Assembly (NCBI RefSeq): GCF_036365525.1
Contig: NC_090373.1
Location: 13,073,935 to 13,137,934, forward strand
Length of the DNA stretch: 64,000 bases
Direction of reading: 5' to 3'
Source of the DNA: Heterodontus francisci
Lineage: Eukaryota
Shown: piece by piece, positions 709-38,580 of the stretch
Numbering within the stretch: the first letter of the stretch is position 1
Layout of the letters: the number at the start of each line of letters is the position of its first letter
The notes under the pieces: model-generated
The model's input: the letters and a program-made list of their open reading frames with translations, nothing else
What the model was told of the DNA's origin: nothing
Databases searched by the model: none
Position numbers and translations under genes: made by a program

Positions 709-711
709 AAA

Positions 712-8779: not shown

Positions 8780-9210
8780 GATTGAAAAGGAAATACCAGG
8801 AGGGGTGACCAAAAGCCTGGTGTGGTGTTTTAGATGTGATGTTTAAGGAAGGGCTTAAAGGAGGAGAGAGAGCTAGAAAGGCAGATAAGCTTAGGCAAGG
8901 AATTCCAGAGTGTGGGCATAGGTGGCTGAAGGCATGATCGCCAATCATGGGAGTTTGGAGGGGACTGCAGAACAGTCAAAAGAATGGAGAGTTTGTGCTT
9001 AGGAGGGTGGTAGAGTGAGGGGAGGTTACAGGGAGAGAGGAGTGCAAGGCCATGAAGGAGTTAAAACATGCTAATTTCAAATTAGAGATATTAAAGGAAT
9101 GGGTGCCAATTTAAGTCAGCAAGAATAGGGGTCATCCAATTAGCTGAAGTTTAGGAGGTGGAGGCTGGGAAGCTGGCCAGTAAATATCATTGCAGTAGTC
9201 AAGTGAAATG
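8780..9210 (-). mobile_element. L2 3' region fragment
   Basis: Reverse-complement similarity to the L2 at 32345-33030 (TTAAAGGAGGAGAGAG...GGAATTCCAGAG...GCTGAAGGCA). Confidence 0.65.
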
Positions 9211-10049: not shown

Positions 10050-10141
10050 ATCAGTGCACAGTGACACGGACATATCTCTTCCTTCACAAATTCTGGTTCT
10101 TCAATGTTGTGTACTACTTTGGCAACTGGGCATTCATTGCT
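10050..10141 (+). CDS. LMBRD1: LMBRD1 penultimate coding exon (lysosomal cobalamin transport escort protein LMBD1)
   Basis: ctttAG acceptor and GTAAGT donor; 92 bp encoding (D)QCTVTRTYLFLHKFWFFNVVYYFGNWAFIA, versus recalled human DQCTVTRTYLFLHKFWFFSAAYYFGNWAFLG; phase joins the next exon. Confidence 0.95.
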
Positions 10142-11124: not shown

Positions 11125-11247
11125 GTCTTCCTAATTGGATTAACTGTCTCCTGTTGCAAAGGAAAACGATCAGTCATTGAGGGGGAGATAGATGACGATG
11201 ATTCAGATTTGAGTGATGACGATCTCTTGGAGAGACAGCGTGTTTAA
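11125..11247 (+). CDS. LMBRD1: LMBRD1 last coding exon
   Basis: ccacAG acceptor; VFLIGLTVSCCKGKRSVIEGEIDDDDSDLSDDDLLERQRV*, versus recalled human VFLIGLIVSCCKGKKSVIEGVDEDSDISDDEPSVYSA; TAA at 11245-11247. Confidence 0.95.
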   Translation, partial: VFLIGLTVSCCKGKRSVIEGEIDDDDSDLSDDDLLERQRV

Positions 11248-12170: not shown

Positions 12171-12499
12171 TGTCCTTCTCCTCTTGGGTGAAAGTGGAGC
12201 CTGACCCTGCAGGGCAATTTCACAGGACTAACAGCATCTCAGTATGCAACGCATGTGGGCTATTCATCATGTGTTGGCCTGGTCAGTGAGTGCCAGCAAG
12301 CCTTTTGACTGTAGAGGGCATCATAGCTGTACCTCATCCATACAGTTGTAGCCTTTTTGTTAGGTTTTATATTTAGAATATGGAAGTTGTATTAAGTATT
12401 ATTAGGATTTATCAGTATTTGTAAGGTTTACTAATAGTAGTATGGTTTATTAGTATTGGCAAAGCTTTATCATCATTGGTGAGGTCTATTAGACTCACG

Positions 12500-14020
12500 G
12501 TGTGCAGGTGACAAGCAGTGTGTGGAGATTCAAGTTGGGCGAGTGGCGAATTTGGTGAGTGGCGAGTCCGGTGAAGGGGGAGGAGGTGCTCCATTTTTCC
12601 TTTTTCTACGTTTTTAACCCTCCAGTATTTGGTTCTTGCTTCGGTGCAGTGGAAGGAGCTGTTTGGTGAGTACCTGGTAAGCTATTCTACTTATAAATAG
12701 TCTGTAAAGTTAAAGTATGGCAGGGCAGCTCTGCTGAGTGGAATGTACAGCCTGTGGCATGTGAGAAGTCATGGAAGCACCATGCGTCCTGGACAAAGAC
12801 ATCTGCAGGGAGTGTCACCAGTTGCAAATGCTTGAGCTCCGGGTTTTGGAACTCGAGCGGCAGCTGAAGTCACTGTTGTGTCTCTGCGAGGCAGAGAACT
12901 ACATGGATAGCACGTTTAGGGAGGTGGTCAGATAGATGCAGGCAGATAGAAAATGGGTGATCACCAGGCAGGTAGTGCAGGAGTCCCCTGACATGATCTC
13001 ACTCGCTAATCGATTTTACATTTGGATACTGGTGAGGGTGAGGGTTCCTCAGAGGAGTGCAGTCAGAGCCACGTTTGTGGCACCACAGGTGGCTCAACTG
13101 CACAGGAGGGGAGGAAGAGGAGTGGAAGAGCAGTACTGATAGAAAATTCATTAGTTAGGGAAACAGTCAAGCGTTTCTGCGGCAGTAAACGTGACTCCAG
13201 GATGGTGTGTTGCCTCCCTGGTGTCAGGGTCAAGGATGTCACGGAGTGGCTGCAGGACATTCTTCTGGGGGAGGGTGAACAGCCAGAGGTCGTTATCCAC
13301 ATTGGTACCAATGACTTAGGTAAGAAGGGGGATGAGGTCCTGAAAGCAGATTTTAGGGAGCTAGGAAGAAGATTAAAAAGCAGGACCTCAAATCCCACGT
13401 GCAAGTGAGCATAGGAATAGGAGAATTGAGCAATTGAACATGTGGCTGGAGGACTGGTGTAGGGAGGGAGGGCATCAGATTTCTGAGACATTGGAACCGG
13501 TTCTGGGGCAGGTGGGATCTGTACAAGAGGGACGGGTTGAATCTTAGCAGGACTGGGACGAATATCCTTGCAGGGAGATTTGCTAGTGCTGTTGGGGAGG
13601 GTTTAAACTAAATTGTCAGGGGGATGGGAAACTGAGAGGGAACTCAGATTGGAGGGAAGCAAAACTGGTAACTAGTCAGGGCTGAGGGAACCAGGAGCAA
13701 GTATTAGAGAGGAATACCAAGGTGCACAGAATAGACAGCACGAGAGTAGGGAATAGTACTTTATTAGGTGGGGTCAGAGTCAGGGATAAAGTAATAAAGT
13801 CTGAATCAGAGTTACTGTGCATGTATGCGAATGCACGGAGTGTGGTTAATAAGACTGTTGAGGTACAGGCACAGATTGCCTTGTGGAAATATGTTGTGGC
13901 TGTAACAGAGCCCTGGCTCAAAAAAGGGCAGGATTGCGTGTTAAATCTTCCTGGATATAAGGTGTTCATGAAAGAGGAAAGGGGAAAAAGGGGGGGGGGG
14001 GGGGGGTGGCGGTATTGATT
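12500..14020 (+). mobile_element. CR1 LINE 5' portion: ORF1 (zinc finger, coiled coil, SGNH esterase) and start of ORF2 APE; decayed
   Basis: From about 12717: ECTACGM...ICRECHQLQMLELRVLELERQL; esterase motifs VCCLPGVRVKDV and VVIHIGTNDLG; APE start LLCMYANARSVVNK...AVTEPWL. Confidence 0.85.
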
Positions 14021-14342
14021 AAGGATTGGAGAATGGGAGATTGCAGTATGGGGGGGTGGGGCAAAAATTTCAATGGCAGTATTATACCAGAGATCTTCTG
14101 TTTGTCAAAAAAAAAATCAAAACAGTTGAGCAGGAGACGTCCAAGAAATTATACAAATGAAACAATGGCAGGAGGGAGCGGGGGGTACTGTTGGTGGGAG
14201 GTAGCGATGGCAACCTTTGAGAGAATTTTCGGGTTGAAGTTGTTTTCTGCGATAAATTTAGCAGCACCATCTTTAATCCTGGCAGCTGCCTGAACATCGC
14301 AGACAGTGACATTTCAGTGGAAGAGGCTGCATTTGTGCATGT

Positions 14343-14368
14343 GCTAGTACTGCGCCACCTAGTGGCTG
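14343..14368 (-). promoter_or_regulatory. Candidate CTCF binding site
   Basis: GCGCCACCTAGTGGC at 14352-14366 (reverse complement GCCACTAGGTGGCGC) matches the canonical CTCF core; adjacent TGCTAGTAC resembles the CTCF auxiliary motif. Confidence 0.55.
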
Positions 14369-14479
14369 GTTTGTCAGCAAACAGCCAAGAAATAATATCA
14401 GATCACATGACTACAGTTATAATTTGACCTATGTTGATATAATGTGTTTGGTTCCTGCACACTAATCCCTACCCCCACC

Positions 14480-14811
14480 CCGCTTCCCAACCTTTTGCTC
14501 AGGCTGAACCTTCAGTGTCCTGTTTTGACCCTAAGCTGAGCTTCAGAATCCTGCATCTGATTCATGACCAACACAATCAGTTTCTACTTCTAAGTGTAGC
14601 TTTCCTCTGTCTCTGATATTTTGCTAATGCTGCTCAAATGATAATCCACACCATTGTTGGCTTTCTTAATGCTCTTTTCTGGGCTCCCCTTCCTCTACTC
14701 AATACAAACACCATTTCGTTCAGAGCTCTGCTTCTGCATTAAGTCCTACTTACCTATGATCCTTGTCTGCACTAACCTCCAGGGCCTTCTCGTTCCCCAA
14801 TGTATTGATTG
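14480..14811 (+). mobile_element. Old L2 fragment, left half of a host element that resumes at about 27362-27545
   Basis: ...GTTCCCCAATGTATTGATT resumes as CAATTCTCATACATTTATAAATCC, in the same order as in the L2 at 32620-32680. Confidence 0.5.
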
Positions 14812-17800
14812 CACAGCAACTTGTATTCATGTGGCGCCTTTAATGTCATCAAAGGCACTCCATGAGAGTGTTATCAGAGAAAATTTGAGACAAAGCCACA
14901 AAAGGAGACAGATGACCAACAACTTGGTCGAAGAAGTAGGTTTTAAGGAGCATCTTAATGGAGGAAGTAGAGAGATGGAGAGGTTCAGGGAGGAGGTAGA
15001 GAGGGAGAGGTTCAGGGAGGAGGTAGAGAGGGAGAGATTCAGGAAGGAGGTAGAGAGAGAGAGAGGTTCAGGGAGGAGGTAGAGAGGGAGAGATTCAGGA
15101 AGGAGGTAGAGAGAGAGAGAGGTTCAGGGAGGAGGTGGAGAGAGAGAGAGGTTCAGGGAGGAGTTAGAGAGAGAGAGGTTCAGGGAGGAGGTAAAGAGAG
15201 AGAGATGTTCAGGGAGGAGGTAGAGAGAGAGAGATGTTCAGGGAGGAGGTAGAGNNNNNNNNNNNNNNNNNNNNNNNNNNNNNNNNNNNNNNNNNNNNNN
15301 NNNNNNNNNNNNNNNNNNNNNNNNNNNNNNNNNNNNNNNNNNNNNNNNNNNNNNNNNNNNNNNNNNNNNNNNNNNNNNNNNNAGAGAGAGAGAGGTTCAG
15401 GGAGGAGGTAGAGAGANNNNNNNNNNNNNNNNNNNNNNNNNNNNNNNNNNNNNNNNNNNNNNNNNNNNNNNNNNNNNNNNNNNNNNNNNNNNNNNNNNNN
15501 NNNNNNNNNNNNNNNNNNNNNNNNNNNNNNNNNNNNNNNNNNNNNNNNNNNNNNNNNNNNNNNNNNNNNNNNNNNNNNNNNNNNNNNNNNNNNNNNNNNN
15601 NNNNNNNNNNNNNNNNNNNNNNNNNNNNNNNNNNNNNNNNNNNNNNNNNNNNNNNNNNNNNNNNNNNNNNNNNNNNNNNNNNNNNNNNNNNNNNNNNNNN
15701 NNNNNNNNNNNNNNNNNNNNNNNNNNNNNNNNNNNNNNNNNNNNNNNNNNNNNNNNNNNNNNNNNNNNNNNNNNNNNNNNNNNNNNNNNNAGAGAGAGGT
15801 TCAGGGAGGAGGTAGAGAGAGAGAGAGAGGTTCAGGGAGGAGGTAGAGAGAGAGAAAGAGAGAGAGGTTCAGGGAGGAGGTAGAGAGAGAAAGAGAGAGA
15901 GGTTCAGGGAGGAGGTGGAGAGAGAGAGAGAGAGAGGTTCAGTGAGGAGGTGGAGAGAGAGAGGTTCAGGGAGGAGGTAGAGAGAGAGAGAGAGAGGTTC
16001 AGGGAGGAGATAGGGAGGAGGTAGAGAGAGAGAGAGGGAGGAGGTAGAGAGAGAGGGGGGGTTCAGGGAGGAGGTAGAGAGAGAGGTTAAGGAAGGAGGT
16101 AGAGAGAGAGAGAGAGGTGTTCAGGGCGGCGGTAGAGAGAGAGAGAGAGGTTCAGGGAGGAGGTGGAGAGAGAGAGGTTCAGGGAGGAGGTGGAGAGAGA
16201 GAGGTTCAGGGAGGAGGTGGAGAGAGAGGTTCAGGGAGGAGGTGGAGAGAGAGAGAGAGGTTCAGGGAGGAGGTGGAGAGAGAGAGAGAGGCTCAGGGAG
16301 GAGGTGGAGAGAGAGAGAGGTTCAGGGAGGAGGTGGAGAGAGAGAGAGGTTCAGGGAGGAGGTGGAGAGAGAGAGAGGTTCAGGGAGGAGGTGGAGAGAG
16401 AGAGAGAGAGTTTCAGGGAGGAGGTGGAGAGAGAGAGAGAGGTTCAGGGAGGAGGTGGAGAGAGAGAGAGAGAGGTTCAGGGAGGAGGTGGGGAGAGAGA
16501 GAGAGAGAGAGGTTCAGTGAGGAGGTGGAGAGGGAGAGATTCAGGAAGGAGGTAGAGAGAGAGAGAGGTTCAGGGAGGAGGTGGAGAGAGAGAGAGAGAG
16601 AGAGAGGTTCAGGGAGGAGTTAGAGAGAGAGAGGTTCAGGGAGGAGGTAAAGAGAGAGAGATGTTCAGGGAGGAGGTAGAGAGAGAGAGATGTTCATGGA
16701 GGAGGTAGAGAGAGGGAGGTTCAGGGAGGAGGTAGAGAGAGGGAGGTTCAGGGAGGAGGTAGAGAGAGGGAGGTTCAGGGAGGAGGTAGAGAGAGAGAGA
16801 GGTTCAGGGAGGAGGTGGGGAGAGAGAGAGAGGGAGAGATTCAGGAAGGAGGTAGAGAGAGAGAGAGGTTCAGGGAGGAGGTAGAGAGGGAGAGATTCAG
16901 GAAGGAGGTAGAGAGAGAGAGAGGTTCAGGGAGGAGGTGGAGAGAGAGAGAGGTTCAGGGAGGAGTTAGAGAGAGAGAGGTTCAGGGAGGAGGTAAAGAG
17001 AGAGAGATGTTCAGGGAGGAGGTAGAGAGAGAGAGATGTTCAGGGAGGAGGTAGAGNNNNNNNNNNNNNNNNNNNNNNNNNNNNNNNNNNNNNNNNNNNN
17101 NNNNNNNNNNNNNNNNNNNNNNNNNNNNNNNNNNNNNNNNNNNNNNNNNNNNNNNNNNNNNNNNNNNNNNNNNNNNNNNNNNNNAGAGAGAGAGAGGTTC
17201 AGGGAGGAGGTAGAGAGANNNNNNNNNNNNNNNNNNNNNNNNNNNNNNNNNNNNNNNNNNNNNNNNNNNNNNNNNNNNNNNNNNNNNNNNNNNNNNNNNN
17301 NNNNNNNNNNNNNNNNNNNNNNNNNNNNNNNNNNNNNNNNNNNNNNNNNNNNNNNNNNNNNNNNNNNNNNNNNNNNNNNNNNNNNNNNNNNNNNNNNNNN
17401 NNNNNNNNNNNNNNNNNNNNNNNNNNNNNNNNNNNNNNNNNNNNNNNNNNNNNNNNNNNNNNNNNNNNNNNNNNNNNNNNNNNNNNNNNNNNNNNNNNNN
17501 NNNNNNNNNNNNNNNNNNNNNNNNNNNNNNNNNNNNNNNNNNNNNNNNNNNNNNNNNNNNNNNNNNNNNNNNNNNNNNNNNNNNNNNNNNNNNNNNNNAG
17601 AGAGAGGTTCAGGGAGGAGGTAGAGAGAGAGAGAGAGGTTCAGGGAGGAGGTAGAGAGAGAGAAAGAGAGAGAGGTTCAGGGAGGAGGTAGAGAGAGAAA
17701 GAGAGAGAGGTTCAGGGAGGAGGTGGAGAGAGAGAGAGAGAGAGGTTCAGTGAGGAGGTGGAGAGAGAGAGGTTCAGGGAGGAGGTAGAGAGAGAGAGAG

Positions 17801-20800
17801 AGAGGTTCAGGGAGGAGATAGGGAGGAGGTAGAGAGAGAGAGAGGGAGGAGGTAGAGAGAGAGGGGGGGTTCAGGGAGGAGGTAGAGAGAGAGGTTAAGG
17901 AAGGAGGTAGAGAGAGAGAGAGAGGTGTTCAGGGCGGCGGTAGAGAGAGAGAGAGAGGTTCAGGGAGGAGGTGGAGAGAGAGAGGTTCAGGGAGGAGGTG
18001 GAGAGAGAGAGGTTCAGGGAGGAGGTGGAGAGAGAGGTTCAGGGAGGAGGTGGAGAGAGAGAGAGAGGTTCAGGGAGGAGGTGGAGAGAGAGAGAGAGGC
18101 TCAGGGAGGAGGTGGAGAGAGAGAGAGGTTCAGGGAGGAGGTGGAGAGAGAGAGAGGTTCAGGGAGGAGGTGGAGAGAGAGAGAGGTTCAGGGAGGAGGT
18201 GGAGAGAGAGAGAGAGAGTTTCAGGGAGGAGGTGGAGAGAGAGAGAGAGGTTCAGGGAGGAGGTGGAGAGAGAGAGAGAGAGGTTCAGGGAGGAGGTGGG
18301 GAGAGAGAGAGAGAGAGAGGTTCAGTGAGGAGGTGGAGAGGGAGAGATTCAGGAAGGAGGTAGAGAGAGAGAGAGGTTCAGGGAGGAGGTGGAGAGAGAG
18401 AGAGAGAGAGAGAGGTTCAGGGAGGAGTTAGAGAGAGAGAGGTTCAGGGAGGAGGTAAAGAGAGAGAGATGTTCAGGGAGGAGGTAGAGAGAGAGAGATG
18501 TTCATGGAGGAGGTAGAGAGAGGGAGGTTCAGGGAGGAGGTAGAGAGAGGGAGGTTCAGGGAGGAGGTAGAGAGAGGGAGGTTCAGGGAGGAGGTAGAGA
18601 GAGAGAGAGGTTCAGGGAGGAGGTGGGGAGAGAGAGAGAGGGAGAGATTCAGGAAGGAGGTAGAGAGAGAGAGAGGTTCAGGAAGGAGGTAGAGAGAGAG
18701 AGAGGTTCAGGGAGGAGGTGGAGAGAGAGAGAGAGAGAGAGGTTCAGGGAGGAGTTAGAGAGAGAGAGGTTCAGGGAGGAGGTAAAGAGAGAGAGATGTT
18801 CAGGGAGGAGGTAGAGAGAGAGAGAGATGTTCAGGGAGGAGGTAGAGAGAGAGGGGGAGGTTCAGGGAGGAGGTAGAGAGAGAGAGAGGTTCAGGGAGGA
18901 GGTAGAGAGAGAGAGGTTCAGGGAGGAGGTAGAGAGAGAGAGGTTCAGGGAGGAGGTAGAGAGAAAGAGAGAGAGGTTCAGGGAGGAGGTAGAGAGAGAG
19001 GTTCAGGGAGGAGGTAGAGNNNNNNNNNNNNNNNNNNNNNNNNNNNNNNNNNNNNNNNNNNNNNNNNNNNNNNNNNNNNNNNNNNNNNNNNNNNNNNNNN
19101 NNNNNNNNNNNNNNNNNNNNNNNNNNNNNNNNNNNNNNNNNNNNNNNNNNNNNNNNNNNNNNNNNNNNNNNNNNNNNNNNNNNNNNNNNNNNNNNNNNNN
19201 NNNNNNNNNNNNNNNNNNNNNNNNNNNNNNNNNNNNNNNNNNNNNNNNNNNNNNNNNNNNNNNNNNNNNNNNNNNNNNNNNNNNNNNNNNNNNNNNNNNN
19301 NNNNNNNNNNNNNNNNNNNNNNNNNNNNNNNNNNNNNNNNNNNNNNNNNNNNNNNNNNNNNNNNNNNNNNNNNNNNNNNNNNNNNNNNNNNNNNNNNNNN
19401 NNNNNNNNNNNNNNNNNNNNNNNNNNNNNNNNNNNNNNNNNNNNNNNNNNNNNNNNNNNNNNNNNNNNNNNNNNNNNNNNNNNNNNNAGNNNNNNNNNNN
19501 NNNNNNNNNNNNNNNNNNNNNNNNNNNNNNNNNNNNNNNNNNNNNNNNNNNNNNNNNNNNNNNNNNNNNNNNNNNNNNNNNNNNNNNNNNNNNNNNNNNN
19601 NNNNNNNNNNNNNNNNNNNNNNNNNNNNNNNNNNNNNNNNNNNNNNNNNNNNNNNNNNNNNNNNNNNNNNNNNNNNNNNNNNNNNNNNNNNNNNNNNNNN
19701 NAGAGAGATAGAGAGGTTCAGGGAGGAGGTAGAGAGAGAGAGAGAGAGAGAGGTTCAGGGAGGAGGTAGAGAGAGAGAGAGAGAGGTTCAGGGAGGAGGT
19801 AGAGAGAGAGAGGTTCAGGGAGGAGGTAGAGAGAGAGAGGTTCAGGGAGGAGGTAGAGAGAGAGAGAGAGAGAGGTTCAGGGAGGAGGTAGAGAGAGAGA
19901 GAGAGAGGTTCAGGGAGGAGGTAGAGNNNNNNNNNNNNNNNNNNNNNNNNNNNNNNNNNNNNNNNNNNNNNNNNNNNNNNNNNNNNNNNNNNNNNNNNNN
20001 NNNNNNNNNNNNNNNNNNNNNNNNNNNNNNNNNNNNNNNNNNNNNNNNNNNNNNNNNNNNAGAGAGAAAGAGAGAGAGGTTCAGGGAGGAGGTGGAGAGA
20101 GAGAGAGAGAGAGGTTCAGTGAGGAGGTGGAGAGAGAGAGGTTCAGGGAGGAGGTAGAGAGAGAGAGAGAGAGGTTCAGGGAGGAGATAGGGAGGAGGTA
20201 GAGAGAGAGAGAGGGAGGAGGTAGAGAGAGAGGGGGGGTTCAGGGAGGAGGTAGAGAGAGAGGTTAAGGAAGGAGGTAGAGAGAGAGAGAGAGGTGTTCA
20301 GGGCGGCGGTAGAGAGAGAGAGAGAGGTTCAGGGAGGAGGTGGAGAGAGAGAGGTTCAGGGAGGAGGTGGAGAGAGAGGTTCAGGGAGGAGGTGGAGAGA
20401 GAGAGAGAGGTTCAGGGAGGAGGTGGAGAGAGAGAGAGAGGCTCAGGGAGGAGGTGGAGAGAGAGAGAGAGGCTCAGGGAGGAGGTGGAGAGAGAGAGAG
20501 GTTCAGGGAGGAGGTGGAGAGAGATGTTCAGGGAGGAGGTGGAGAGAGAGAGAGGTTCAGGGAGGAGGTGGAGAGAGAGAGAGGTTCAGGGAGGAGGTGG
20601 AGAGAGAGAGAGAGAGTTTCAGGGAGGAGGTGGAGAGAGAGAGAGAGGTTCAGGGAGGAGGTGGAGAGAGAGAGAGAGGTTCAGGGAGGAGGTGGGGAGA
20701 GAGAGAGAGAGAGAGGTTCAGTGAGGAGGTGGAGAGGGAGAGATTCAGGAAGGAGGTAGAGAGAGAGAGAGGTTCAGGGAGGAGGTGGAGAGAGAGAGAG

Positions 20801-23800
20801 AGAGAGGTTCAGGGAGGAGTTAGAGAGAGAGAGGTTCAGGGAGGAGGTAAAGAGAGAGAGATGTTCAGGGAGGAGGTAGAGAGAGAGAGATGTTCAGGGA
20901 GGAGGTAGAGAGAGGGAGGTTCAGGGAGGAGGTAGAGAGAGGGAGGTTCAGGGAGGAGGTAGAGAGAGGGAGGTTCAGGGAGGAGGTAGAGAGAGAGAGA
21001 GGTTCAGGGAGGAGGTGGGGAGAGAGAGAGAGGGAGAGATTCAGGGAGGAGGTAGAGAGAGAGAGGGAGGTTCAGGGAGGAGGTAGAGAGAGAGAGAGGT
21101 TCAGGGAGGAGGTAGAGAGAGAGAGAGAGAGGTTCAGGGAGGAGGTAGAGAGAGAGAGGTTCAGGGAGGAGGTAGAGAGAAAGAGAGAGAGGTTCAGGGA
21201 GGAGGTAGAGAGAGAGGTTCAGGGAGGAGGTAGAGAGAGATAGGTTCAGGGAGGAGGTAGAGAGAGAGAGAGAGGTTCAGGGAGGAGGTAGAGAGAGAGA
21301 GAGAGGTTCAGGGAGGAGGTAGAGAGAGAGAGAGAGGTTCAGGGAGGAGGGAGAGAGAGAGAGAGGTTCAGGGAGGAGGTAGAGAGAGGTTCAGGGAGGA
21401 GGTAGAGAGAGAAAGAGAGAGAGGTTCAGGGAGGAGGTAGAGAGAGAGAGAGAGAGAGGTTCAGTGAGGAGGTAGAGAGAAAGAGAGAGAGGTTCAGGGA
21501 GGAGGTAGAGAGAGAGGTTCAGGGAGGAGGTAGAGAGAGATAGGTTCAGGGAGGAGGTAGAGAGAGAGAGAGAGGTTCAGGGAGGAGGTAGAGAGAGAGA
21601 GAGAGGTTCAGGGAGGAGGGAGAGAGAGAGAGAGGTTCAGGGAGGAGGTAGAGAGAGGTTCAGGGAGGAGGTAGAGAGAGAAAGAGAGAGAGGTTCAGGG
21701 AGGAGGTAGAGAGAGAGAGAGAGAGAGGTTCAGTGAGGAGGTAGAGAGAGAGAGGTTCAGGGAGGAGGTAGAGAGAGAGAGAGAGAGGTTCAGGGAGGAG
21801 GTAGAGAGAGAGAGAGAGGTTCAGGGAGGAGATAGAGAGAGAGGTTCAGGGAGGAGATAGAGAGAGAGGTTCAGGGAGGAGGTAGAGAGAGAGAGAGGTT
21901 CAGGGAGGAGAGAGAGAGAGGGGGGGTTCAGGGAGGAGGTAGAGAGAGAGAGGTTAAGGAAGGAGGTAGAGAGAGAGAGAGAGGTGTTCAGGGCGGCGGT
22001 AGAGAGAGAGAGAGAGGTTCAGGGAGGAGGTGGAGAGAGAGAGGTTCAGGGAGGAGGTGGAGAGAGAGAGGTTCAGGGAGGAGGTGGAGAGAGAGGTTCA
22101 GGGAGGAGGTGGAGAGAGAGAGAGAGGTTCAGGGAGGAGGTGGAGAGAGAGAGAGAGGTTCAGGGAGGAGGTGGAGAGAGAGAGGTTCAGGGAGGAGGTG
22201 GAGAGAGAGAGGTTCAGGGAGGAGGTGGAGAGAGAGAGAGGTTCAGGGAGGAGGTGGAGAGAGAGAGAGAGAGTTTCAGGGAGGAGGTGGAGAGAGAGAG
22301 AGAGGTTCAGGGAGGAGGTGGAGAGAGAGAGAGAGAGAGGTTCAGGGAGGAGGTAGAGAGAGAGAGAGAGGTTCAGGGAGGAGGTGGAGAGGGAGAGATT
22401 CAGGAAGGAGGTAGAGAGAGAGAGAGGTTCAGGGAGGAGGTGGAGAGAGAGAGAGAGAGAGGTTCAGGGAGGAGGTAAAGAGAGAGAGATGTTCAGGGAG
22501 GAGGTAGAGAGAGAGAGAGATGTTCAGGGAGGAGGTAGAGAGAGGGAGGTTCAGGGAGGAGGTAGAGAGAGGGAGGTTCAGGGAGGAGGTAGAGAGAGGG
22601 AGGTTCAGGGAGGAGGTAGAGAGAGAGAGAGAGGTTCAGGGAGGAGGTAGAGAGAGAGAGAGAGGTTCAGGGAGGAGGTTGAGAGAGAGAGGTTCAGGGA
22701 GGAGGTGGAGAGAGAGGTTCAGGGAGGAGGTGGAGAGAGAGAGAGAGGTTCAGGGAGGAGGTGGAGAGAGAGAGAGAGAGGTTCAGGGAGGAGGTGGAGA
22801 GAGAGAGAGAGAGGTTCAGGGAGGAGGTGGAGAGAGAGAGAGAGGTTCAGGGAGGAGGTGGAGAGAGAGAGAGAGAGGTTCAGGGAGGAGGTGGAGAGAG
22901 AGAGAGAGAGGTTCAGGGAGGAGGTGGAGAGAGAGAGAGAGAGGTTCAGGGAGGATGTGGAGAGAGAGAGAGAGAAGTTCAGGGAGGAGGTGGAGAGAGA
23001 GAGAGAGAGGTTCAGGGAGGAGGTGGAGAGAGAGAGAGAGAGAGAGGTTCAGGGAGGAGGTGGAGAGAGAGAGAGAGAGGTTCAGGGAGGAGGTGGAGAG
23101 AGAGAGAGAGGTTCAGGGAGGAGGTGGAGAGAGAGAGAGAGAGAGGTTCAGGGAGGAGGTGGAGAGAGAGAGAGGTTCAGGGAGGAGGTGGAGAGAGAGA
23201 GAGAGAGGTTCAGGGAGGAGGTGCAGAGAGAGAGAGAGGTTCAGGGAGGAGGTGGAGAGAGAGAGAGAGAGGTTCAGGGAGGAGGTGGAGAGAGAGAGAG
23301 AGAGAGGTTCAGGGAGGAGGTGGAGACAGAGAGAGAGAGGTTCAGGGAGGAGGTGGAGACAGAGAGAGAGAGGTTCAGGGAGGAGGTGGAGACAGAGAGA
23401 GAGAGGTTCAGGGAGGAGGTGCAGAGAGAGAGAGAGGTTCAGGGAGGAGGTGCAGAGAGAGAGAGAGGTTCAGGGAGGAGGTGGAGAGAGAGAGAGGTTC
23501 AGGGAGGAGGTGGAGAGAGAGAGAGTGAGGGGTTTATGGAGGAGGTGGAGAGAGAGAGAGGGGTTCAGGGAGGAGGTAGAGAGAGAGGTTCAGGGAGGAG
23601 GTAGAGAGAGAGGTTCAGGGAGGAGGTAGAGAGAGAGGTTCAGAGAGGAGGTGGAGAGAGAGAGAGAGGTTCAGGGAGGAGGTGGAGAGAGAGAGAGAGG
23701 TTCAGGGAGGAGGTGGAGAGAGAGAGAGAGGTTCAGGGAGGAGGTGGAGAGAGAGAGAGAGGTTCAGGGAGGAGGTGGAGAGAGAGAGAGGTTCAGGGAG

Positions 23801-26800
23801 GAGGTGGAGAGAGAGAGAGAGGTTCAGGGAGGAGGTGGAGAGAGAGAGAGAGGTTCAGGGAGGAGGTGGAGAGAGAGAGAGAGGTTCAGGGAGGAGGTGG
23901 AGAGAGAGAGAGAGGTTCAGGGAGGAGGTGGAGAGAGAGAGAGAGGTTCAGGGAGGAGGTGGAGAGAGAGAGAGAAGTTCAGGGAGGAGGTGGAGAGAGA
24001 GAGCGAGGTTCAGGGAGGAGGTAGAGAGAGAGGTTCAGGGAGGAGGTGCAGAGAGAGAGAGAGGTTCAGGGAGGAGGTGGAGAGAGAGAGAGTGAGGGGT
24101 TTATGGAGGAGGTGGAGAGAGAGAGGTTCAGGGAGGAGGTGGAGAGAGAGAGAGGTTCAGGGAGGAGGTGGAGAGAGAGAGAGAGGTTCAGGGAGGAGGT
24201 GGAGAGAGAGAGAGAGGTTCAGGGAGGAGGTGGAGAGAGAGAGAGAGAGAGGTTCAGGGAGGAGGTGGAGATGGAGAGAGAGAGAGAGAGGTTCAGGGAG
24301 GAGGTGGAGAGAGAGGCGTTTAGGGAGGAGGTGGAGAGAGAGAGAGGCGTTTAGGGAGGAGGTGGAGAGAGAGAGAGGCGTTTAGGGAGGAGGTGGAGAG
24401 AGAGAGAGGTTCAGGGAGGAGGTGGAGAGAGAGAGGTTCAGGGAGGAGGTGGAGAGAGAGAGAGAGAGGTTCAGGGAGGAGGTGGAGAGAGAGAGAGAGG
24501 CGTTCAGGGAGGAGGTGGAGAGAGAGAGAGAGGTTCAGGGAGGAGGTCGAGAGAGATGGGTTCAGGGAGGAGGTGGAGAGAGAGAGGTTTCGGGAGGAGG
24601 TAGCGAGAGAGAGAAGGGTTCAGGGAGGAGGTGGAGAGAGAGAGAGAGGTTCAGGGAGGAGGTGGAGAGAGAGAGAGAGGTTCAGGGAGGAGGTGGAGGT
24701 GGAGAGAGAGAGAGAGGTTCAGGGAGGAGGTGGAGAGAAAGAGAGGGAGAGGTTCAGGGAGGAGGTGGAGAGAGAGAGAGAGAGAGGTTCAGGGAGGAGG
24801 TAGAGAGANNNNNNNNNNNNNNNNNNNNNNNNNNNNNNNNNNNNNNNNNNNNNNNNNNNNNNNNNNNNNNNNNNNNNNNNNNNNNNNNNNNNNNNNNNNN
24901 NNNNNNNNNNNNNNNNNNNNNNNNNNNNNNNNNNNNNNNNNAGAGAGGCGTTTAGGGAGGAGGAGGAGAGAGAGAGGCGTTTAGGGAGGAGGTGGAGAGA
25001 GAGAGAGAGAGGTTCAGGGAGGAGGTGGAGAGAGAGAGGTTCAGGGAGGAGGTGGAGAGAGAGAGGTTCAGGGAGGAGGTGGAGAGAGAGAGAGGTTCAG
25101 GGAGGAGGTGGAGAGAGAGAGAGAGAGGTTCAGGGAGGAGGTGGAGAGAGAGAGGCGTTTAGCGAGGAGGTGGAGAGAGAGAGAAAGGTTCAGGGAGGAG
25201 GTCGAGAGAGAGGTTTAGGGAGGAGGTAGCGAGAGAGAGAAGGGTTCAGGGAGGAGGTGGAGAGAGAGAGAGAAGGGTTCAGGGAGGAGGTGGAGAGAGA
25301 GAGAGAGAGAGGTTCAGGGAGGAGGTGGAGAGAGAGATAGAGAGAGGTTCAGGGAGGAGGTGGAGATGGAGAGAGAGAGAGGTTCAGGGAGGAGGTGGAG
25401 AGAGAGAGAGGTTCAGGGAGGAGGTGGAGAGAGAGAGAGAGAGGTTCAGGGAGGAGGTGGAGAGAGAGAGGCGTTTAGGGAGGAGGTGGAGAGAGAGAGA
25501 GAGAGGTTCAGGGAGGAGGTGGAGAGAGAGAGGCGTTTAGGGAGGAGGTGGAGAGAGAGAGAGAGGTTCAGGGAGGAGGTAGAGAGAGAGAGGTTTAGGG
25601 AGGAGGTAGCGAGAGAGAGAGGGGTTCAGGGAGGAGGTGGAGAGAGAGAGGTTTAGGGAGGAGGTAGCGAGAGAGAGGTTTAGGGAGGAGGTAGCGAGAG
25701 AGANNNNNNNNNNNNNNNNNNNNNNNNNNNNNNNNNNNNNNNNNNNNNNNNNNNNNNNNNNNNNNNNNNNNNNNNNNNNNNNNNNNNNNNNNNNNNNNNN
25801 NNNNNNNNNNNNNNNNNNNNNNNNNNNNNNNNNNNNNNNNNNNNNNNNNNNNNNNNNNNNNGGAGAGAGAGAGGCGTTTAGGGAGGAGGTGGAGAGAGAG
25901 AGAGAGAGGTTCAGGGAGGAGGTGTAGAGAGAGAGGCGTTTAGGGAGGAGGTGGAGAGAGAGAGAGAGGTTCAGGGAGGAGGTAGAGAGAGAGAGGTTTA
26001 GGGAGGAGGTAGCGAGAGAGAGAGGGCTTCAGGGAGGAGGTGGTGAGAGAGAGGTTTAGGGAGGAGGTAGCGAGAGAGANNNNNNNNNNNNNNNNNNNNN
26101 NNNNNNNNNNNNNNNNNNNNNNNNNNNNNNNNNNNNNNNNNNNNNNNNNNNNNNNNNNNNNNNNNNNNNNNNNNNNNNNNNNNNNNNNNNNNNNNNNNNN
26201 NNNNNNNNNNNNNNNNNNNNNNNNNNNNNNNNNNNNNNNNNAGATGGAGAGAGAGAGAGGTTCAGGGAGGAGGTGGAGAGTGAGAGAGGTTCAGGGAGGA
26301 GGTGGAGAGAGAGAGAGAGAGGTTCAGGGAGGAGGTGGAGAGAGAGAGGTGTTTAGGGAGGAGGTGGAGAGAGAGAGAGAGAGGTTCAGGGAGGAGGTAG
26401 AGAGAGAGAGGTTCAGGGAGGAGGTAGAGAGAGAGAGGTTTAGGGAGGAGGAAGCGAGAGAGAGAGGGGTTCAGGGAGGAGGTGGAGAGAGAGAGAGAGG
26501 TTCAGGGAGGAGGTCGAGAGAGAGAGGTTCAGGGAGGAGGTAGAGAGAGAGAGGGGTTCAGGGAGGAGGTAGAGAGAGAGAGAGGTTTAGGGAGGAGGTA
26601 GAGAGTGAGAGAGGAGGTAGAGAGAGAGAGAGTGAGTGGTTCAGGGAGGAGGTAGAGAGAGAGAGTGAGTGGTTTAGGGAGGAGGTAGAGAGAGAGAGTG
26701 AGTGGTTCAGGGAGGAGGTAGAGAGAGAGAGTGAGTGGTTCAGGGAGGAGGTAGAGAGAGAGAGTGAGTGGTTCAGGGAGGAGGTAGAGAGAGAGAGGGG

Positions 26801-27360
26801 GGTTCAGGGAGGAGGTAGAGAGAGAGAGGGGGGTTCAGGGAGGAGGTAGAGAGAGAGAGTGAGTGGTTCAGGGAGGAGGTAGAGAGAGAGAGTGAGTGGT
26901 TCAGGGAGGAGGTAGAGAGAGAGAGGGGGGTTCAGGGAGGAGGTAGAGAGAGAGAATGAGTGGTTCAGGGAGGAGATAGAGAGAGAGTGAGTGGTTCAGG
27001 GAGGAGGTAGAGAGAGAGAGGGGGGTTCAGGGAGGAGGTAGAGAGAGTGAGTGGTTCAGGGAGGAGATAGAGAGAGGGAGAGGTTCAGGGAGGGAATTCC
27101 ACAGCTTTGGGCCTGAATAGCTGAAGACACAGCAGCCAATGATGAAGCAATTAAAATCAGGGATGCACAAGAGACCAGAATTGGAGGAGCACAGACATCT
27201 GAAGACAAGGCTGAGAATTTTAAAACTGAATTGTCAAACTAGGATTGATGGCGGAACGGGACTTGGTGTGAGCATGGATAGAGGCACCAGAGTTCTTGAG
27301 CTGATATAGGGTGAAAGATGGGAGGCTATCCAGGGCAGCGTTGGAATAGTCAAGTCTCCG
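14812..27360 (-). mobile_element. L2 3' fragment interrupted by a 12 kb satellite
   Basis: L2 tail (CAACTTGTATTCATGTGGCGCCTTTAATG) at about 14817; body stops near 14990 and resumes at 27091 (AGGGAATTCCACAGCTTTGGGCC...CAAGAGACCAGAATTGGAGG), colinear with the reverse complement of the L2 at 32345-33030. Confidence 0.85.
14960..27092 (+). repeat. Polypurine compound satellite, unit GGTTCAGGGAGGAGGT(A/G)+(GA)n, about 25-37 bp
   Basis: Hundreds of tandem units seen directly; variant blocks, about 1.8 kb higher-order duplication, several N runs. Confidence 0.97.
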
Positions 27361-27804: not shown

Positions 27805-30800
27805 CCGTAGGAACAGGAGTAGGCCACTCAGTCCCTCATGCCTGTTCTGCCATTCATTGAGCTTGTGGCCAACCTGTATCTTAACTCGATTCACCCACCT
27901 TGGCTTCATATCTTTTTTTATTCATTCATGGGACGTGAGCATCGCTGGCTCGGCCAGCATTTATTGCCCTTCCCTAATTGCCCTCGAGAAGGTGGTGATG
28001 AGCCATCGCCTGGAATCGCTGCAGTCCTTGGGATGTAGGTACACCCACAGTGCTGCTAGGAAGGGAGTTCCAGGATTTTGACCCAGTGTCAGTGAAAGAA
28101 TAGCGATGTAGTTCCAAGTCAGGATGGTGTGTGGCTTGGACGGGATCTTGCAGGTGGTGGTGTTCCCATGCATCTGCTGCCTTTGTCCTTCTAAGTGGTA
28201 GAGGTTGTGGGTTTGGAAGGTGCTGTCGAAGGAGATGTGGTGAGTTACTGTAGTGCATCTTGTAGATGATACGCACTGCTGCCACTTCGTGTTGGTGGTG
28301 AAGGAATTGAATGTTGAAGATGGTGGATGGGGCGCCAATCAAGAGATCCGCTTTATCCTCAATGGTGTCGAGCTTCCTGAATGTTGTTGAAGCTGCACTC
28401 ATTCAGGCAAGTGGAGAATATTCCATCACACTCCTGACTTGTGCCTTGCAGATGGCAGACAGGCATTGGGGAGTCAGGAGGTGAGTTACTCGCCGCAGAA
28501 TTCCCAGCCTCTGACCTGCTCTTGTAGCCACAGCATTTATGTGGCTTGTTCAGTATCGGTTTCTGGTTAATGGTAACCCCCCCAGGATGGGATTCAGCGA
28601 TGGTAATGCCATTGAACATCAAGGGGAGATGGTTAGATTCTATCTTATTTGAGATGATCATTGCCTGGCACTTGTGTGGCGTGAATATTACTTGCCAATT
28701 ATCAACCCAAGCCTGAATGTTGTCGAGGTCTTGTTGCATATGGACATGGGCTGTTTCAGTATCTGAACAGTCACGAATGGTACTGAACATTGTGCAAACA
28801 TCAGCGAACATCCCCACTTCTGACCTTATGATGGAGGGAAAGTCTTTGATGAAGCAGCTGAAGATGGTTGGACCTAGGACTCCTACCTTCAGGAACTCGA
28901 ACAGTGATGTCCTGGGACTGAGATGATTGACCTCCAACAACCACAACCATCTTCCTTTGTGCTAGGTATGACTCCAGCAGCGGAAGGTTTTCTCCCTGAT
29001 TGACATTGACTCCAGTTTTGCTAGGACTCCTTGATGCCATACTCAGTCAAATGCTGCCTTGATGTCAAGGGCAGTCGCTCTCACCTCACCTCTTGAGTTC
29101 AGCTCTTTTGTCCATGTTTGAACCAAGGCTGTAATGAGGTCAGGAGCTGAGTGGCCCTGGCGGAATCCAAACTGAGCATCAGTGCACAGGTGCTGCTTGA
29201 TCGCACTGTTGATGACAGCTTCCATCACTTTACTGATGATTGAGAGTAGACTGATAGGGAGGTAATTGGCCGGGTTGGACTTGTCCTGCTCTTTGTGTAC
29301 AGGACATACCTGGGAAATTTTCCACATTGCCGGGTAGATGCCAGTGTTGCAGCTATACTGGAACAGCTTGGCTAGGGGCACGGCAAGTTCTGGAGCACAG
29401 GTCTTCAGTACTATTGCCAGAATGTTGTCGGGGCCCATAGCCTTTGCAGTATCCAGTGCCTTCAGTCGTTTCTTGATATCATGTGGAGTGAATCGGATTG
29501 GCTGAAGTCTGGCATCTGTGATACTGGGGACCTCACGAGGAGGCCAAGATGGATCATCCACTCGGCACTTCTGGCTGAAGATGGGTGCAAATACTTCAGC
29601 CTTGCTTTTGCACTGATGTGCTGGACTTCCCCCATTGTTAAGAATGGGGATATTTGTGGAGACTTCTCTTCCTGTTAGTTGCTTAATTGTTCACCATTCA
29701 CGACTGGATGTGGCAGGACTGCAGAGCTTAGATCTGATCCGTCGGTTATAGGATCAGTTAGCTCTGTCTATCGCATGCTGGTTCTGCTGTTTGGCATGCA
29801 TGTAGTTCTGGGTTGTAGTTTCACCCGGCTGACACCTCATTTTTAGGTATGCCTGGAGCTGCTCCTGGAATGCCGTCTCCTGCTGTCTTCATTGAACCAG
29901 GGTTTGTCCCCAGCTTAATGGTAATGGTAGAGTGGGGGGATATGCCAGGCCATGAGGGTTAATTCTGCTGCTGCTGATGGCCCACAACACCTCATGAATG
30001 CCCAATTTTGAGTTGCTAGATCTGTTGGAAATCTATCCCATTCAGCACGGTGGTAGTGCGACACAAATCAATGGTGGGTATCCTCAATGTGAGGACAGTT
30101 CTTCGGCTCCACAAGGACTGTGCAGTGGTCACTTCTACCAATACTGTCATGGGCAAAGGCATCTGTGACAGATTAGTGAGGACGAGGTCAAGTAGGTTTT
30201 TCCCCAATTGTTGGTTCCCTCACCACCTACCACAGACCCAGTCTGGCAGCTATGTCCTTTAGGTCTTGGCCAGTAATGGTGCTACTGAGCCACTCTTGGT
30301 GATGGACATTGAAGTGCCCCACCCAGAGTACATTCTGTGCCCTTGCTACCTTTCGTGCTTCTTCCAATTGGTATTCAACATGGAGGGACAGTAAGTGATA
30401 ATCAGCAGGAGGTTTCCTTGCCCATGTTTGGGCTGATGCCATGAGACTTTATGGGGTCCAGAATCAATTTTGAAAGCTCCCAGGGCAACTCCTCCCACCT
30501 GTATACCACTGGGCTGCCATCTCTCGTGGCTCTGTCCTTCCCGTGGGACACAACATACCCAGGGATGGTGGTCAGGGACATTGTAAGGTATTCCTTGAGT
30601 ATGGCTGTGTTAGGCTGTTGCTTGACTAGTCTGTAGGCAGTTCTCCCAATTTTGGCACAAGCCCCCAGATGTTAGTAAGAACTTTGTAGTATTGATGGAG
30701 CTGGCTGTGGCATTGTTATTTCCAGTGCCTACATCACTGCTGGGTGGTCCATCCTGTTTCATTCCTTCTATTAGGCTTTAGATGCAACTAAATGGCTTGC

Positions 30801-31756: not shown

Positions 31757-32340
31757 AGGCCCTAAGCTGAGGCGAATAACTCACCTCCTGACTCCCCAAA
31801 GCCTGTCCACAATCTACAAGGCACAAGTCAGGAGTGTGATGGAGTACTCTCCACTTACCTGGATGGGTGCAGCTCCAACAACACTCAAGAACCATCCAGG
31901 ACAAAGCCGCCCGCTTGATTGGCACCCCATCCACAAACATTCACTCCCTCCACCACCGACGCACAGTGGCAGCAGTGTGTACCATCTACAAGATGCACTG
32001 CGGCAACGCACCAAAGCTCCTTCGACAGCACCTTCCAAACCCACGACCTCTACCACTTAGAAGGACAAGAGAAGCAAATGCATGGGAACACCACCACCTG
32101 CAAGTTCCCCTCCAAGTCACACACCATCCTGACTTGGAACTATATCGCCGTTCCTTCACTGTCGCTGGGTCAAAATCCTGGAACTCCCTTCCTAACAACA
32201 CTGTAGGTGTACCTATCCCACATGGGCTGCAGTGGTTCAAGAAGGCAGCTCACCACCACCTTCTCAAGGGCATTTAATGATGGGCAATAAATGCTGGCCT
32301 AGCCAGTGACGCCCACATCCCATGAATGAATAAAGATAAA
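31757..32340 (+). mobile_element. 3' fragment of family A LINE
   Basis: LRRITHLLTPQSLSTIYKAQVRSVMEYSPL...FKKAAHHHLLKG plus intact tail CCCACATCCCATGAATGAATAAA. Confidence 0.9.
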
Positions 32341-32344
32341 AGCT

Positions 32345-33200
32345 CTAAGCCATCACTAAGACTGCCTATTTTCACCTCTGTAACATCGTCCAATTTCGCC
32401 CCGTCTCAGCTCTTCTGTCACTGAAATCCTTATTCATGCCCTTGTTACCTCCAGGCTTGACTATTCCAATGGTGGAATACAATCTGGCTGGTCTTCCACA
32501 TTCTACTCTGCCACATTTTACTGTCCGCAAACTTGAGATCATCCAAAACTCTGCTGCCCATGTCTTAACTCGCACCAAGTCCCATTCCCCTAACATTCCT
32601 GTGCTCACTGACCCACAATGGCTCCCAGTCAAGCAATGTCTTGATTTTAAAATACTTATCCTTGTTTTCAAACCCCTTCCTATCTCTGTAATCTCCTCCA
32701 GTCGCACAACCCTCCAAGATATCTGGGCTCCTCTAATTCTGGCCTCTTGAACGTCCTTGATTTTAATCACTCCACCATTGGTGGTCACACCTTCAGTTGA
32801 CTGGGCCCTAAGATCTGGAATACCCTCCCTAAATCTCTCTGCCTCTCCACCTCGCTTTCTTCTTTTAAGACACTCCTTAAAACCTACCTCTTTGACCAAG
32901 CTTTTGCTCTTCTGATGTAATATATCTCCTTATGTGGCTCGGTGTCATACTTTGTTTTATAATGCTCCTGTAAAGCGCCTTGGGATGTTTTACATTAAAG
33001 GCACAATATAAATATAAGTTGTTGTTGAACTTTCTCCCTAAATCTCTCCACCTCTCTACCTCTCTCTCTTCATTTAAGACTTACCTCACCTGCCCCAATA
33101 CCTCCTTTTGTGGCTTACTGTCAAATGCTGTCTAATTATGCTCCTGTGAAGTGCCTTGGGATATTTTACTATGTCGAAGTTGTTATATAAGTACAAGTTA
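32345..33200 (+). mobile_element. L2 3' end, followed by a second short L2 tail (about 33030-33200)
   Basis: LIHALVTSRLDYSN, KLEIIQNSAAHVLTRTK, WLPVKQCLDFKILILVFK; tail GTAAAGCGCCTTGGGATGTTTTACATTAAAGG...GTTGTTG. Confidence 0.9.
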
Positions 33201-33567
33201 TTACTGTATTCTTCTTCCACTTCATCTACATGTTCAAATCTTGGCATCTTGGAATCCACATCACAATGGTTTGTGCCATAGAGCTTATTTTTGCGAGGGG
33301 AAAAGAGGGGTTCGGGGACAAAGGTTCCTTTATAATTTTCCCTGTTTATGTGTTTTAAGAAAAAACTTGCCAATGGCTAGTCCCATCATTCCAAATACTA
33401 GGAATTCATGGCCAATTTACAGTTTTCAATCATGGTGCCTCATATTTGATCATGGAATTGTACTGCAGATGGGCATTTTCTGTGGGAAATATCCTTGTAA
33501 TTCATTTTGGCTGCACTATAATGAGATACTTGAGTATTTTTAAAAGCTTTAAACACTGTTAACTTCA

Positions 33568-37512: not shown

Positions 37513-38580
37513 GGACAGTAGTCACACGGATACAAAATTCGCTGAGTGACAGGAAACAGAGAGTAGTTGTGAACAATAGTTTTCTGGACTGGAGGAAGGT
37601 ATAAATTGGGGTTCCCAGGGGTCAGTGTTAGGACACCTGTTTTTCTTGATTTTTGTTAATGACTTAGACCTGGGTGCGCAGGACACAATTTCAAAATTTT
37701 ATGGATGACACAAAACTTGGAAGCATTGTGAATTGAAAGGATAGTGATAAATTTCAGTGGACATAGACAGGCTGGTGGAATAGGTGGACACGTGGCAGAT
37801 GTAATTTATTGCAGAGAAGTGTGAAGTGATGCATTTTGGTAGGAAGCATGAGGAGAGGCAATCTAAAACGAAGGATACAATTCTAACGGGGTGCAGGATC
37901 AGAGGGAACTGGGGGTGTAGGTGCACAAATCATTGAAGGTTGAGAGCAGGTTGAGAAATCTGTAATAAAGCATATGGTATCCTTGTCTTTGTAAACAAGG
38001 GCATAGAGTACAAGAACAAGGAAGTTATGATAAACCTGCATAAAACATTGGTTCAGCCTCAACTGGAGTATAGTGTCCAGTTCTAGACATCACACTTTAG
38101 GAAGAATGTTAAGGCATTAGAGAGGGTGCAGAAAGGATTCACACAAATGGTTGCAGAGATCAGGAGTTTAAGTTACGTGGATAGATTGGAGAAGCTGAGG
38201 CTGTTCTCCTTGGAGGAGAGAAGATTAAGAGGAGATTTGGTAAAGGTGTTCAAAATCATGACAGGTCAGGACAGAGTAAATAGGGAGAAACTATTCCCAT
38301 TGGCAGAAGGATAGAGAACCATAGGACACTGATTTAAGGTAATTGGCCAAAGAAACAATGGCGACATATGAAAAATGTTTTTACGCAGCGAGTAGTTAGA
38401 TCTGAAATACACTGCCTGAAGTGTGGTGGAGGCAGGTTCAATTGAGGCATTGTGAAGAGAAAAAGATTTGCAAAGTGTGAGAAAAAGCTGGGGGAGTGGG
38501 ACTTGGCGAGTTACTCTTGCAGACAGCATGCACAGACGTGATGGGCCAAATGGCCTCCTTCTGTGCGATAACCATTCTAT
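37513..38580 (+). mobile_element. CR1 3' fragment inserted antisense into an older CR1
   Basis: RLEKLRLFSLEERRLRGDLVKVFKIM; tail GGGCCAAATGGCCTCCTTCTGTGC; CTATTGA on both flanks as a possible TSD. Confidence 0.85.

What the first reader, a model, noticed from the sequence alone, without database searches (positions are those of the whole stretch)
14960..27092. 12 kb satellite born in place from a ~29 bp piece of an L2 3' end
Seen: L2 sequence enters the array (GTAGGTTTTAAGGAGCATCTTAATGGAGGAAGTAGAGAGATGGAGAGGTTCAGGGAG) and leaves it (GAGAGGTTCAGGGAGGGAATTCC) exactly where the unexpanded L2 near 32820-32900 has one copy (GAGGTGGAGAGGCAGAGAGATTTAGGGAGGGTATTCC on minus). Each unit also carries its own variable (GA)n microsatellite. 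Inference: GGAG microhomology seeded slippage and later unequal exchange, so this abundant L2 may act as a genome-wide satellite seed. It lies about 3 kb from the LMBRD1 3' end.
Basis: partly seen in the sequence, partly recalled or inferred. Interest (0 to 1): 0.7.

Follow-up and report, generated by a model that had tools for sequence, protein, structure and literature searches.

The report
Minisatellite grown inside an old LINE
A 12-kb run of roughly 30-base repeats grew in place out of a 29-base piece of an old jumping-gene copy and seems to be confined to this one spot, a clean but already known way for tandem repeats to arise.

Summary
The array is real (14960-27093, about 385-395 units, mostly 23-39 bp; 19% reads N). 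It was born in place. With the array collapsed to one unit, the flanks align through the junction to an unexpanded LINE copy 5 kb away (340 of 437 aligned columns), with no target-site duplication. The 29-bp seed lies in the last codons of ORF2 and is bounded by 5-bp GGAGG direct repeats. The end units keep an ancestral interruption; inner units became a pure (GA)n that slips in 2-bp steps. A 1.8-kb block is duplicated almost exactly, and two older copies follow. The 'genome-wide satellite seed' idea is not supported for this unit. Reads from two samples hold only about one array's worth of it (rough estimate), while the parent LINE end is about 31,000 times the flank depth. Divergent arrays in other copies were not tested, because no genome was held. 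The L2 label rests on recalled motifs. LMBRD1 is confirmed, ending 3.2-3.7 kb upstream. This is a new, large member of a known kind, the TE-derived minisatellite, and is probably neutral.

The parts
14960..27093 (+). Compound minisatellite array, (GGAGG + ~24 bp)n + GGAGG, about 385-395 units, each with a variable (GA)n; + strand 86% purine
14960..14964 (+). First GGAGG direct repeat (boundary on the LINE's 3' side)
27089..27093 (+). Last GGAGG direct repeat (boundary on the LINE's 5' side)
14813..14959 (-). Host LINE (L2-like) downstream of the array: last ORF2 codons (KMLLKTYFF) and 3' tail
27094..27357 (-). Host LINE upstream of the array: degenerate ORF2 C-terminal region with internal deletions, running into GPKLWNSLP
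15021..18636 (+). Two near-identical ~1.8-kb higher-order blocks (1038 of 1038 and 232 of 234 identical in the stretches compared; 39 of 39 N-free units with the same GA length)
20061..21020 (+). Third, diverged partial copy of the block (2 mismatches, 7 gap runs)
21935..22620 (+). Fourth, diverged partial copy of the block (3 mismatches, 8 gap runs)
32453..33025 (+). Unexpanded copy of the same LINE 3' end, used as reference
33034..33202 (+). Second unexpanded, shorter copy of the LINE 3' end
8842..8942 (-). Third unexpanded copy (in an LMBRD1 intron)
10050..10141 (+). LMBRD1 penultimate coding exon
11125..11247 (+). LMBRD1 last coding exon to the stop (40 codons; fits the 38 residues left after LMBD1 502 of 540)

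Best explanation
A single-locus, probably neutral VNTR/minisatellite that grew inside a dead, old L2-like LINE copy. (1) Shown: the host copy is old, 78% identical to its neighbour over aligned columns, with internal deletions. (2) Shown: at the seed site, other family copies read as a degenerate 8-bp purine proto-repeat between two GGAGG-like words, and this copy is 6-8 bp shorter there, leaving 24 bp between two perfect GGAGG. (3) Inferred: slippage or unequal exchange between the two GGAGG made the first duplicate. (4) Shown as a pattern, timing inferred: inner units lost the GG interruption, so the spacer became a pure (GA)n that slips within each unit, while the end units kept it. (5) Shown as a pattern, mechanism inferred: growth by local unit duplication and by kilobase block duplication (unequal exchange or gene conversion) took it to 12 kb.
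For: The flanks are collinear with the unexpanded copy and there is no target-site duplication (no shared word of 4 or more bases just outside the ends). Translation runs through the junction in the ORF2 tail. The ancestral GGAGAGG ending precedes 4 of 320 anchors, and 3 of these are the first two and the last unit. The family's loose-end read consensus shows the same GG interruption and the 8-bp proto-repeat (table 7). Neighbouring units share the A/G variant 82% of the time, against 49% in 2,000 shuffles (maximum 58%). Rare marker units recur at offsets of 1808, 2369 and about 1,690 bp. Array-type units occur in two samples at about one array's worth of depth, and 9 raw reads in S2 loop back through units. 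The 16-bp core has no copy within 2 mismatches elsewhere in the window. The route is in print: Ahmed and Liang 2012 (PMC3389668) report 7,276 TE-derived human repeats, 300 flanked by 5-20 bp direct repeats.
Against: No unexpanded allele of this locus was seen; S1's flank contig stops at 14952, before the array. A 5-bp repeat in GA-rich DNA is weak evidence on its own, and the cited study explains only 6% of TE-derived repeats by the two known initiation models. 19% of the array is unreadable. The depth estimate is rough: the tool warns that summed depth is no copy number, human-like reads are dropped, and S2's flank depth rests on about 2 reads. X1-X3 look like one data set.
Confidence: 0.85

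Rival explanations
1. The seed site is a family-wide hotspot: many copies of this very abundant LINE have independently grown their own minisatellites at the same position, each with a different unit.
For: The site is an 8-bp proto-repeat whose count differs between read consensuses (table 7). The family is very abundant, about 31,000 times the flank depth. Hotspots inside TE consensus sequences are reported for AluS, and SINE-derived satellites arise repeatedly in squamates.
Against: 0 of the 3 other copies in the window are expanded. None of the three has both GGAGG words intact. This unit amounts to about one array. Our findings index showed nothing similar by place, sequence or shark-specific words, but it held no notes for this genome.
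Confidence: 0.2
2. Part of the length is an assembly artefact: the near-perfect 1.8-kb duplication is a misjoin and the true array is shorter, about 10 kb or less.
For: 1038 of 1038 identical bases and 39 of 39 identical GA lengths between the two blocks are unusual for fast-slipping tracts. No laid record spans the array.
Against: The blocks differ at 2 of 234 bases in one stretch and in total length (1802 vs 1808 bp). Two older, diverged copies of the block show that block duplication does happen here. Human VNTR alleles expand in blocks of 45-50 units (PMC8327921). Depth fits several hundred units.
Confidence: 0.15
3. A pre-existing GA-rich satellite was copied into the LINE from elsewhere, by insertion or gene conversion at a homologous site.
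For: GA-rich repeats are common, and shark genomes are rich in simple tandem repeats.
Against: The unit is the host's own sequence in register, including a host-specific shortening and TTCAG in place of the TTTAG seen in family reads. The end units are the most ancestral. There is no target-site duplication and no excess copy number.
Confidence: 0.04
4. The array is kept by selection as a termination or R-loop zone, or as a regulatory element, behind LMBRD1.
For: It lies 3.2 kb past the first AATAAA, with the G-rich strand as the non-template strand for read-through. That such strands favour R-loops is recalled, not tested.
Against: No expression or conservation data. No canonical G3 quadruplex pattern (0 matches). 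Rapid internal turnover is what a neutral array shows.
Confidence: 0.05

Closest known systems
TE-derived minisatellites of the human genome (Ahmed and Liang 2012, PMC3389668; read parts 1-3 of 4 and searched the supplement)
   Same: The unit is a piece of the host TE, duplicated in situ, sometimes between short direct repeats. The supplementary table names L2a, L2b and L2c 36, 37 and 202 times, so L2-associated repeats are on record.
   Different: The human Alu-derived cases average 2.3-2.4 units, and the six L2 rows shown had 2-3. This array has about 390 units, an internal microsatellite and kilobase higher-order blocks.
Direct-repeat model of minisatellite origin (Haber and Louis 1998) and Alu-derived minisatellites (Jurka and Gentles 2006); seen only as cited in PMC6947457 and PMC3389668
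   Same: A 5-10 bp direct repeat flanks the unit; slippage or unequal crossing-over starts the array, and later exchange enlarges it.
   Different: Here the repeat is at the short limit (5 bp), and the seed overlaps a proto-microsatellite.
Mouse expanded repeats from retroelements: Ms6-hm (MaLR) and the (GGCAGA)n family (B1); seen only as cited in reviews
   Same: Large arrays expanded inside a retroelement copy.
   Different: Their units are 5-6 bp (5 bp for Ms6-hm is recalled). The B1 case is a multi-locus family; here the unit is 29 bp and appears single-locus.
SINE-derived satellites (sSats) of squamates (Vassetzky et al. 2023, PMC10702118; read part 1 of 5 and passages)
   Same: Tandem arrays of a retroposon segment, up to hundreds of units (320 and nearly 950), with locus-specific subvariants.
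   Different: Units are 70-290 nt, SINE-derived and multi-locus; here the unit is 29 bp, from LINE ORF2, and apparently at one locus.
Microsatellite seeding by CR1-L3 and Rex LINEs in snakes (Pasquesi et al. 2018, PMC6050309; passages)
   Same: A LINE 3' end is tied to simple repeats.
   Different: There the repeat sits at the LINE's 3' tail and is spread with it. Here expansion happened after insertion, in one dead copy, inside the coding end.

Membership tests
TE-derived minisatellite | Unit of 10-100 bp, head to tail | tested here: met
   290 of 302 N-free units are 23-39 bp
TE-derived minisatellite | Unit overlaps or matches a TE segment in register | tested here: met
   Collapsed allele aligns through the junction to an unexpanded copy, 340 of 437 columns
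TE-derived minisatellite | Local duplication rather than transposition of a ready-made array | tested here: met
   Neighbour similarity 0.82 vs 0.49 shuffled; block repeats; 3 of 3 other copies unexpanded
Haber-Louis direct-repeat origin | 5-10 bp direct repeats bound the unit and the array | tested here: met
   GGAGG at 14960-14964 and 27089-27093, 24-bp spacer in the first unit
Haber-Louis direct-repeat origin | Single-unit ancestral allele at the orthologous site | not testable with these tools
   No genome held; only one organism held the flank; its contig stops before the array
L2 clade of LINEs | Reverse-transcriptase phylogeny groups with L2 | not testable with these tools
   Only the 3' ~600 bp is present, and no named L2 references came back
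L2 clade of LINEs | ORF2 C-terminus of the WNSLP...FK.LLKT.LF type, distinct from CR1 tails | tested here: inconclusive
   Motif is present and differs from other LINE tails in the window ending LDEHL or LDGHL. Assigning the first to L2 and the others to CR1 is recalled. The one protein hit was a Heterodontus francisci gene model, 67% identical, uninformative on clade
Satellite DNA family (multi-locus, high copy) | Unit abundant across the genome | tested here: not met
   Depth about 330-470 times the flank in S1, and about 49 reads against 42-52 expected from this array alone in S2; rough
Satellite DNA family (multi-locus, high copy) | Heterochromatic, centromeric or subtelomeric location | not testable with these tools
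   Lies 3.7 kb after the LMBRD1 stop; chromosome position unknown
LINE microsatellite seeding (squamate CR1-L3 type) | Repeat carried in the mobile element's tail and present in many copies | tested here: not met
   Other window copies and family read consensuses are unexpanded at this site
sSat (SINE-derived satellites) | Unit of 70-290 nt from a tRNA-derived SINE | tested here: not met
   The unit is 29 bp of ORF2-like sequence; a SINE head upstream of the host was not looked for

The most novel reading that the evidence does not exclude
The last codons of ORF2 in this very abundant shark LINE hold a built-in proto-repeat between direct repeats. Many dead copies have therefore each grown their own compound minisatellite (a microsatellite nested in every unit) at the same position, explaining a real share of the simple tandem repeat load reported in shark genomes. 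Thousands of unexpanded copies would serve as natural controls for which point changes trigger expansion.
Probability: 0.2. Interest if true: 0.55.

Novelty: new member of a known kind. Interest (0 to 1): 0.3.

Why it matters
It is an unusually complete record of one minisatellite's life: both host flanks intact, ancestral end units, a nested microsatellite and several block duplications of different age. It would be a highly variable marker next to LMBRD1. As a class it is known. It would matter more only if the same LINE position has expanded many times, because elasmobranch genomes carry many simple tandem repeats and I saw no source for them named in the passages read.

Tried and rejected
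The sequencing-run search found only one organism and one sample holding the flank (4 of 8 rows), so no orthologue in a relative was available. 4 of the 8 runs were laid (X1, X2, X3, X5). Protein searches to name the LINE clade gave 0 hits among 10 candidates and 1 uninformative hit among 28. The Atlas search with the LMBRD1 exon gave only low-score unnamed clusters; two translations were first read in the wrong frame and corrected. A target-site duplication was looked for and not found. A canonical G-quadruplex pattern was not found. The two CT-rich tracts at 39.6 and 49.9 kb were checked as possible second expansions of this LINE: they belong to another dispersed element with a different head. 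Look-ups in our findings by place, sequence and shark-specific words were empty. Paper searches listed no report of an L2-derived array in a shark. The library holds only open-licence PMC papers and bioRxiv, and the preprint's supplements were not seen.

Full report
Observation. The window holds a strongly purine-skewed tandem array from 14960 to 27093. 2,277 of its 12,133 bases read N in 10 runs. Their content is unknown, so all counts refer to the readable part. Parsing gave 302 N-free units: 290 of 23-39 bp and 12 unresolved doubles. 289 of the 302 have odd length, and the longest (GA) tract per unit runs from 2 to 11 repeats. Scaling to the full length gives about 385 units, or about 395 from a looser count of 320 anchors. 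The + strand is 86% purine.

Origin in place. BLAST maps the left flank to 33025-32823 and the right flank to 32847-32717 of an unexpanded repeat copy, overlapping by about one unit. Collapsing the array to one unit gives an allele that aligns across the junction: 340 of 437 aligned columns identical, score 315 against a mean of 32 and a maximum of 55.5 in 200 base shuffles; with strict gaps 222 of 284, score 173 against a maximum of 31. No word of 4 or more bases is shared by the sequences just outside the two ends, so there is no target-site duplication. On the minus strand the right flank reads ...GPKLWNSLPEPL into the array, and the left flank reads ...KMLLKTYFF out of it. These match adjacent parts of the reference tail (residues 2-18 and 18-38). 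So the seed is the coding end of ORF2. Two more copies of this end in the window (33034-33202 and 8842-8942) are also single-unit.

The seed. The array has the form (GGAGG + spacer)n + GGAGG, with a 24-bp spacer in the first unit, which gives the 29-bp unit. Loose-end consensuses from other family copies show a degenerate 8-bp purine repeat at this site, with a GG interruption before the final AGAGG, and a second consensus with a different repeat count (table 7). The host copy is 6-8 bp shorter here than its neighbours. None of the three other window copies has both GGAGG words intact. The ancestral GGAGAGG ending precedes only 4 of 320 anchors: the first two units, the last unit and one inner unit; 221 read AGAGAGG. 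I infer that loss of the interruption turned the spacer into a pure microsatellite that then slipped within each unit.

Growth. Adjacent units share the A/G variant in 82% of pairs, against 49% (maximum 58%) in 2,000 shuffles. A block of about 1.8 kb is repeated directly: 1038 of 1038 and 232 of 234 bases identical in the two stretches compared, and 39 of 39 N-free units with the same GA length. A third copy (20061-21020) and a fourth (21935-22620) have 2-3 mismatches and 7-8 gap runs; GA lengths agree in 9 of 11, 8 of 10 and 4 of 6 units. The right-hand 4 kb has its own local variants. This fits repeated block duplication by unequal exchange or conversion, which is inferred. The youngest duplication is so exact that a misjoin cannot be excluded.

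Other samples and copy number. Four of 8 listed runs hold the flank, all from sample S1 of organism A. I laid X1, X2, X3 (S1; apparently one data set) and X5 (S2, another study) on 14060-15020. S1's flank contig differs from the window at 2-3 sites and stops at 14952, so it does not show the junction. Array-type sequence is present in both samples. In S2, 9 reads loop back through units, and 27 of 49 reads carry the G variant, against 151 of 302 units in the window. Summed contig depth at position 15004, beyond where unexpanded copies align, is 332 (X1) and 380 (X3) times the flank depth; neighbouring measures reach about 470. The LINE end itself is about 31,000 times the flank depth. In S2 the depth of about 49 compares with 42-52 reads expected from this array alone at a flank depth of 0.62. 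The tool warns that summed depth is not a copy number, human-like reads are dropped, only reads at least 88% alike were laid, and the S2 flank depth rests on about two reads. Within those limits, both samples point to roughly one array's worth of this unit. That supports the order of magnitude of the length and argues against a genome-wide family. It says nothing about arrays seeded by other, diverged copies.

Context. The exon at 10050-10141 matches LMBD1 residues 474-502 (E 4e-13). The next exon ends at a stop at 11245-11247, and AATAAA lies at 11751 and 11786, so the array begins 3.2-3.7 kb downstream. The species is not established; the only pointer to sharks from my calls is one Heterodontus francisci hit. 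The L2 label rests on recalled motifs: the tail differs from other LINE tails in the window that I recall as CR1-like, but no call named the clade.

Comparison with what is known. TE-derived minisatellites are well documented. Ahmed and Liang (PMC3389668; parts 1-3 of 4 and a supplement search) count 7,276 in human, 300 with 5-20 bp flanking direct repeats, report in situ growth, and list L2a, L2b and L2c 36, 37 and 202 times. Two reviews (PMC6947457, PMC9659126; passages) give the direct-repeat model and cases from Alu, B1, MaLR, L1 ORF2 and CR1, whose primary papers I saw only as cited. Squamate sSats reach hundreds of units per locus (PMC10702118; part 1 of 5 and passages). Block-wise expansion to 381 units is described for a human VNTR (PMC8327921; passages). 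LINE microsatellite seeding in snakes (PMC6050309; passages) differs because the repeat is tied to the element's tail. Two elasmobranch genome papers (PMC10620051 and bioRxiv 10.1101/2025.06.08.657570; passages) report abundant simple tandem repeats. PMC3747384 (passages) did not help to name the element. Searches listed no L2-derived array in a shark. Earlier AI notes from this scan describe three comparable arrays born in CR1 or SINE copies in other genomes; I did not test them.

Verdict. Real, born in place, most likely neutral and single-locus. New member of a known kind. What sets it apart is its size, the microsatellite nested in each unit and how well its history can be read. Interest 0.3.

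Noticed in passing
window 39485-39882 and 49743-50310: Two copies of another dispersed element share a head of about 130 bp and then carry differently decayed CT-rich tandem tracts, i.e. an element with an internal variable repeat.
   Followed up: partly
window 41841-42109: 17-bp minisatellite of about 13-16 copies; origin not examined.
   Followed up: no
window 14225-14389: A second very abundant repeat, with depth comparable to the LINE end, in the left flank (table 2); not identified.
   Followed up: no
window 14580-14842: A decayed plus-strand piece weakly similar to the same LINE family (tblastn E 0.013 at 14741-14842) abuts the 3' end of the host copy, tail to tail.
   Followed up: partly
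window 1-4300, 27901-30582 and 31767-32352: Several mutually similar LINE fragments (70-86% identical, both orientations) of another family with a WNSLP-type tail.
   Followed up: partly
window 37534-38442, 58381-59192, 60597-61380, 62628-63544: Four old 3' LINE fragments (65-70% identical) with tails that I recall as CR1-like.
   Followed up: partly
window 12480-14000: A LINE-like 5' region with reading-frame-like sequence between LMBRD1 and the array (seen); not analysed.
   Followed up: no
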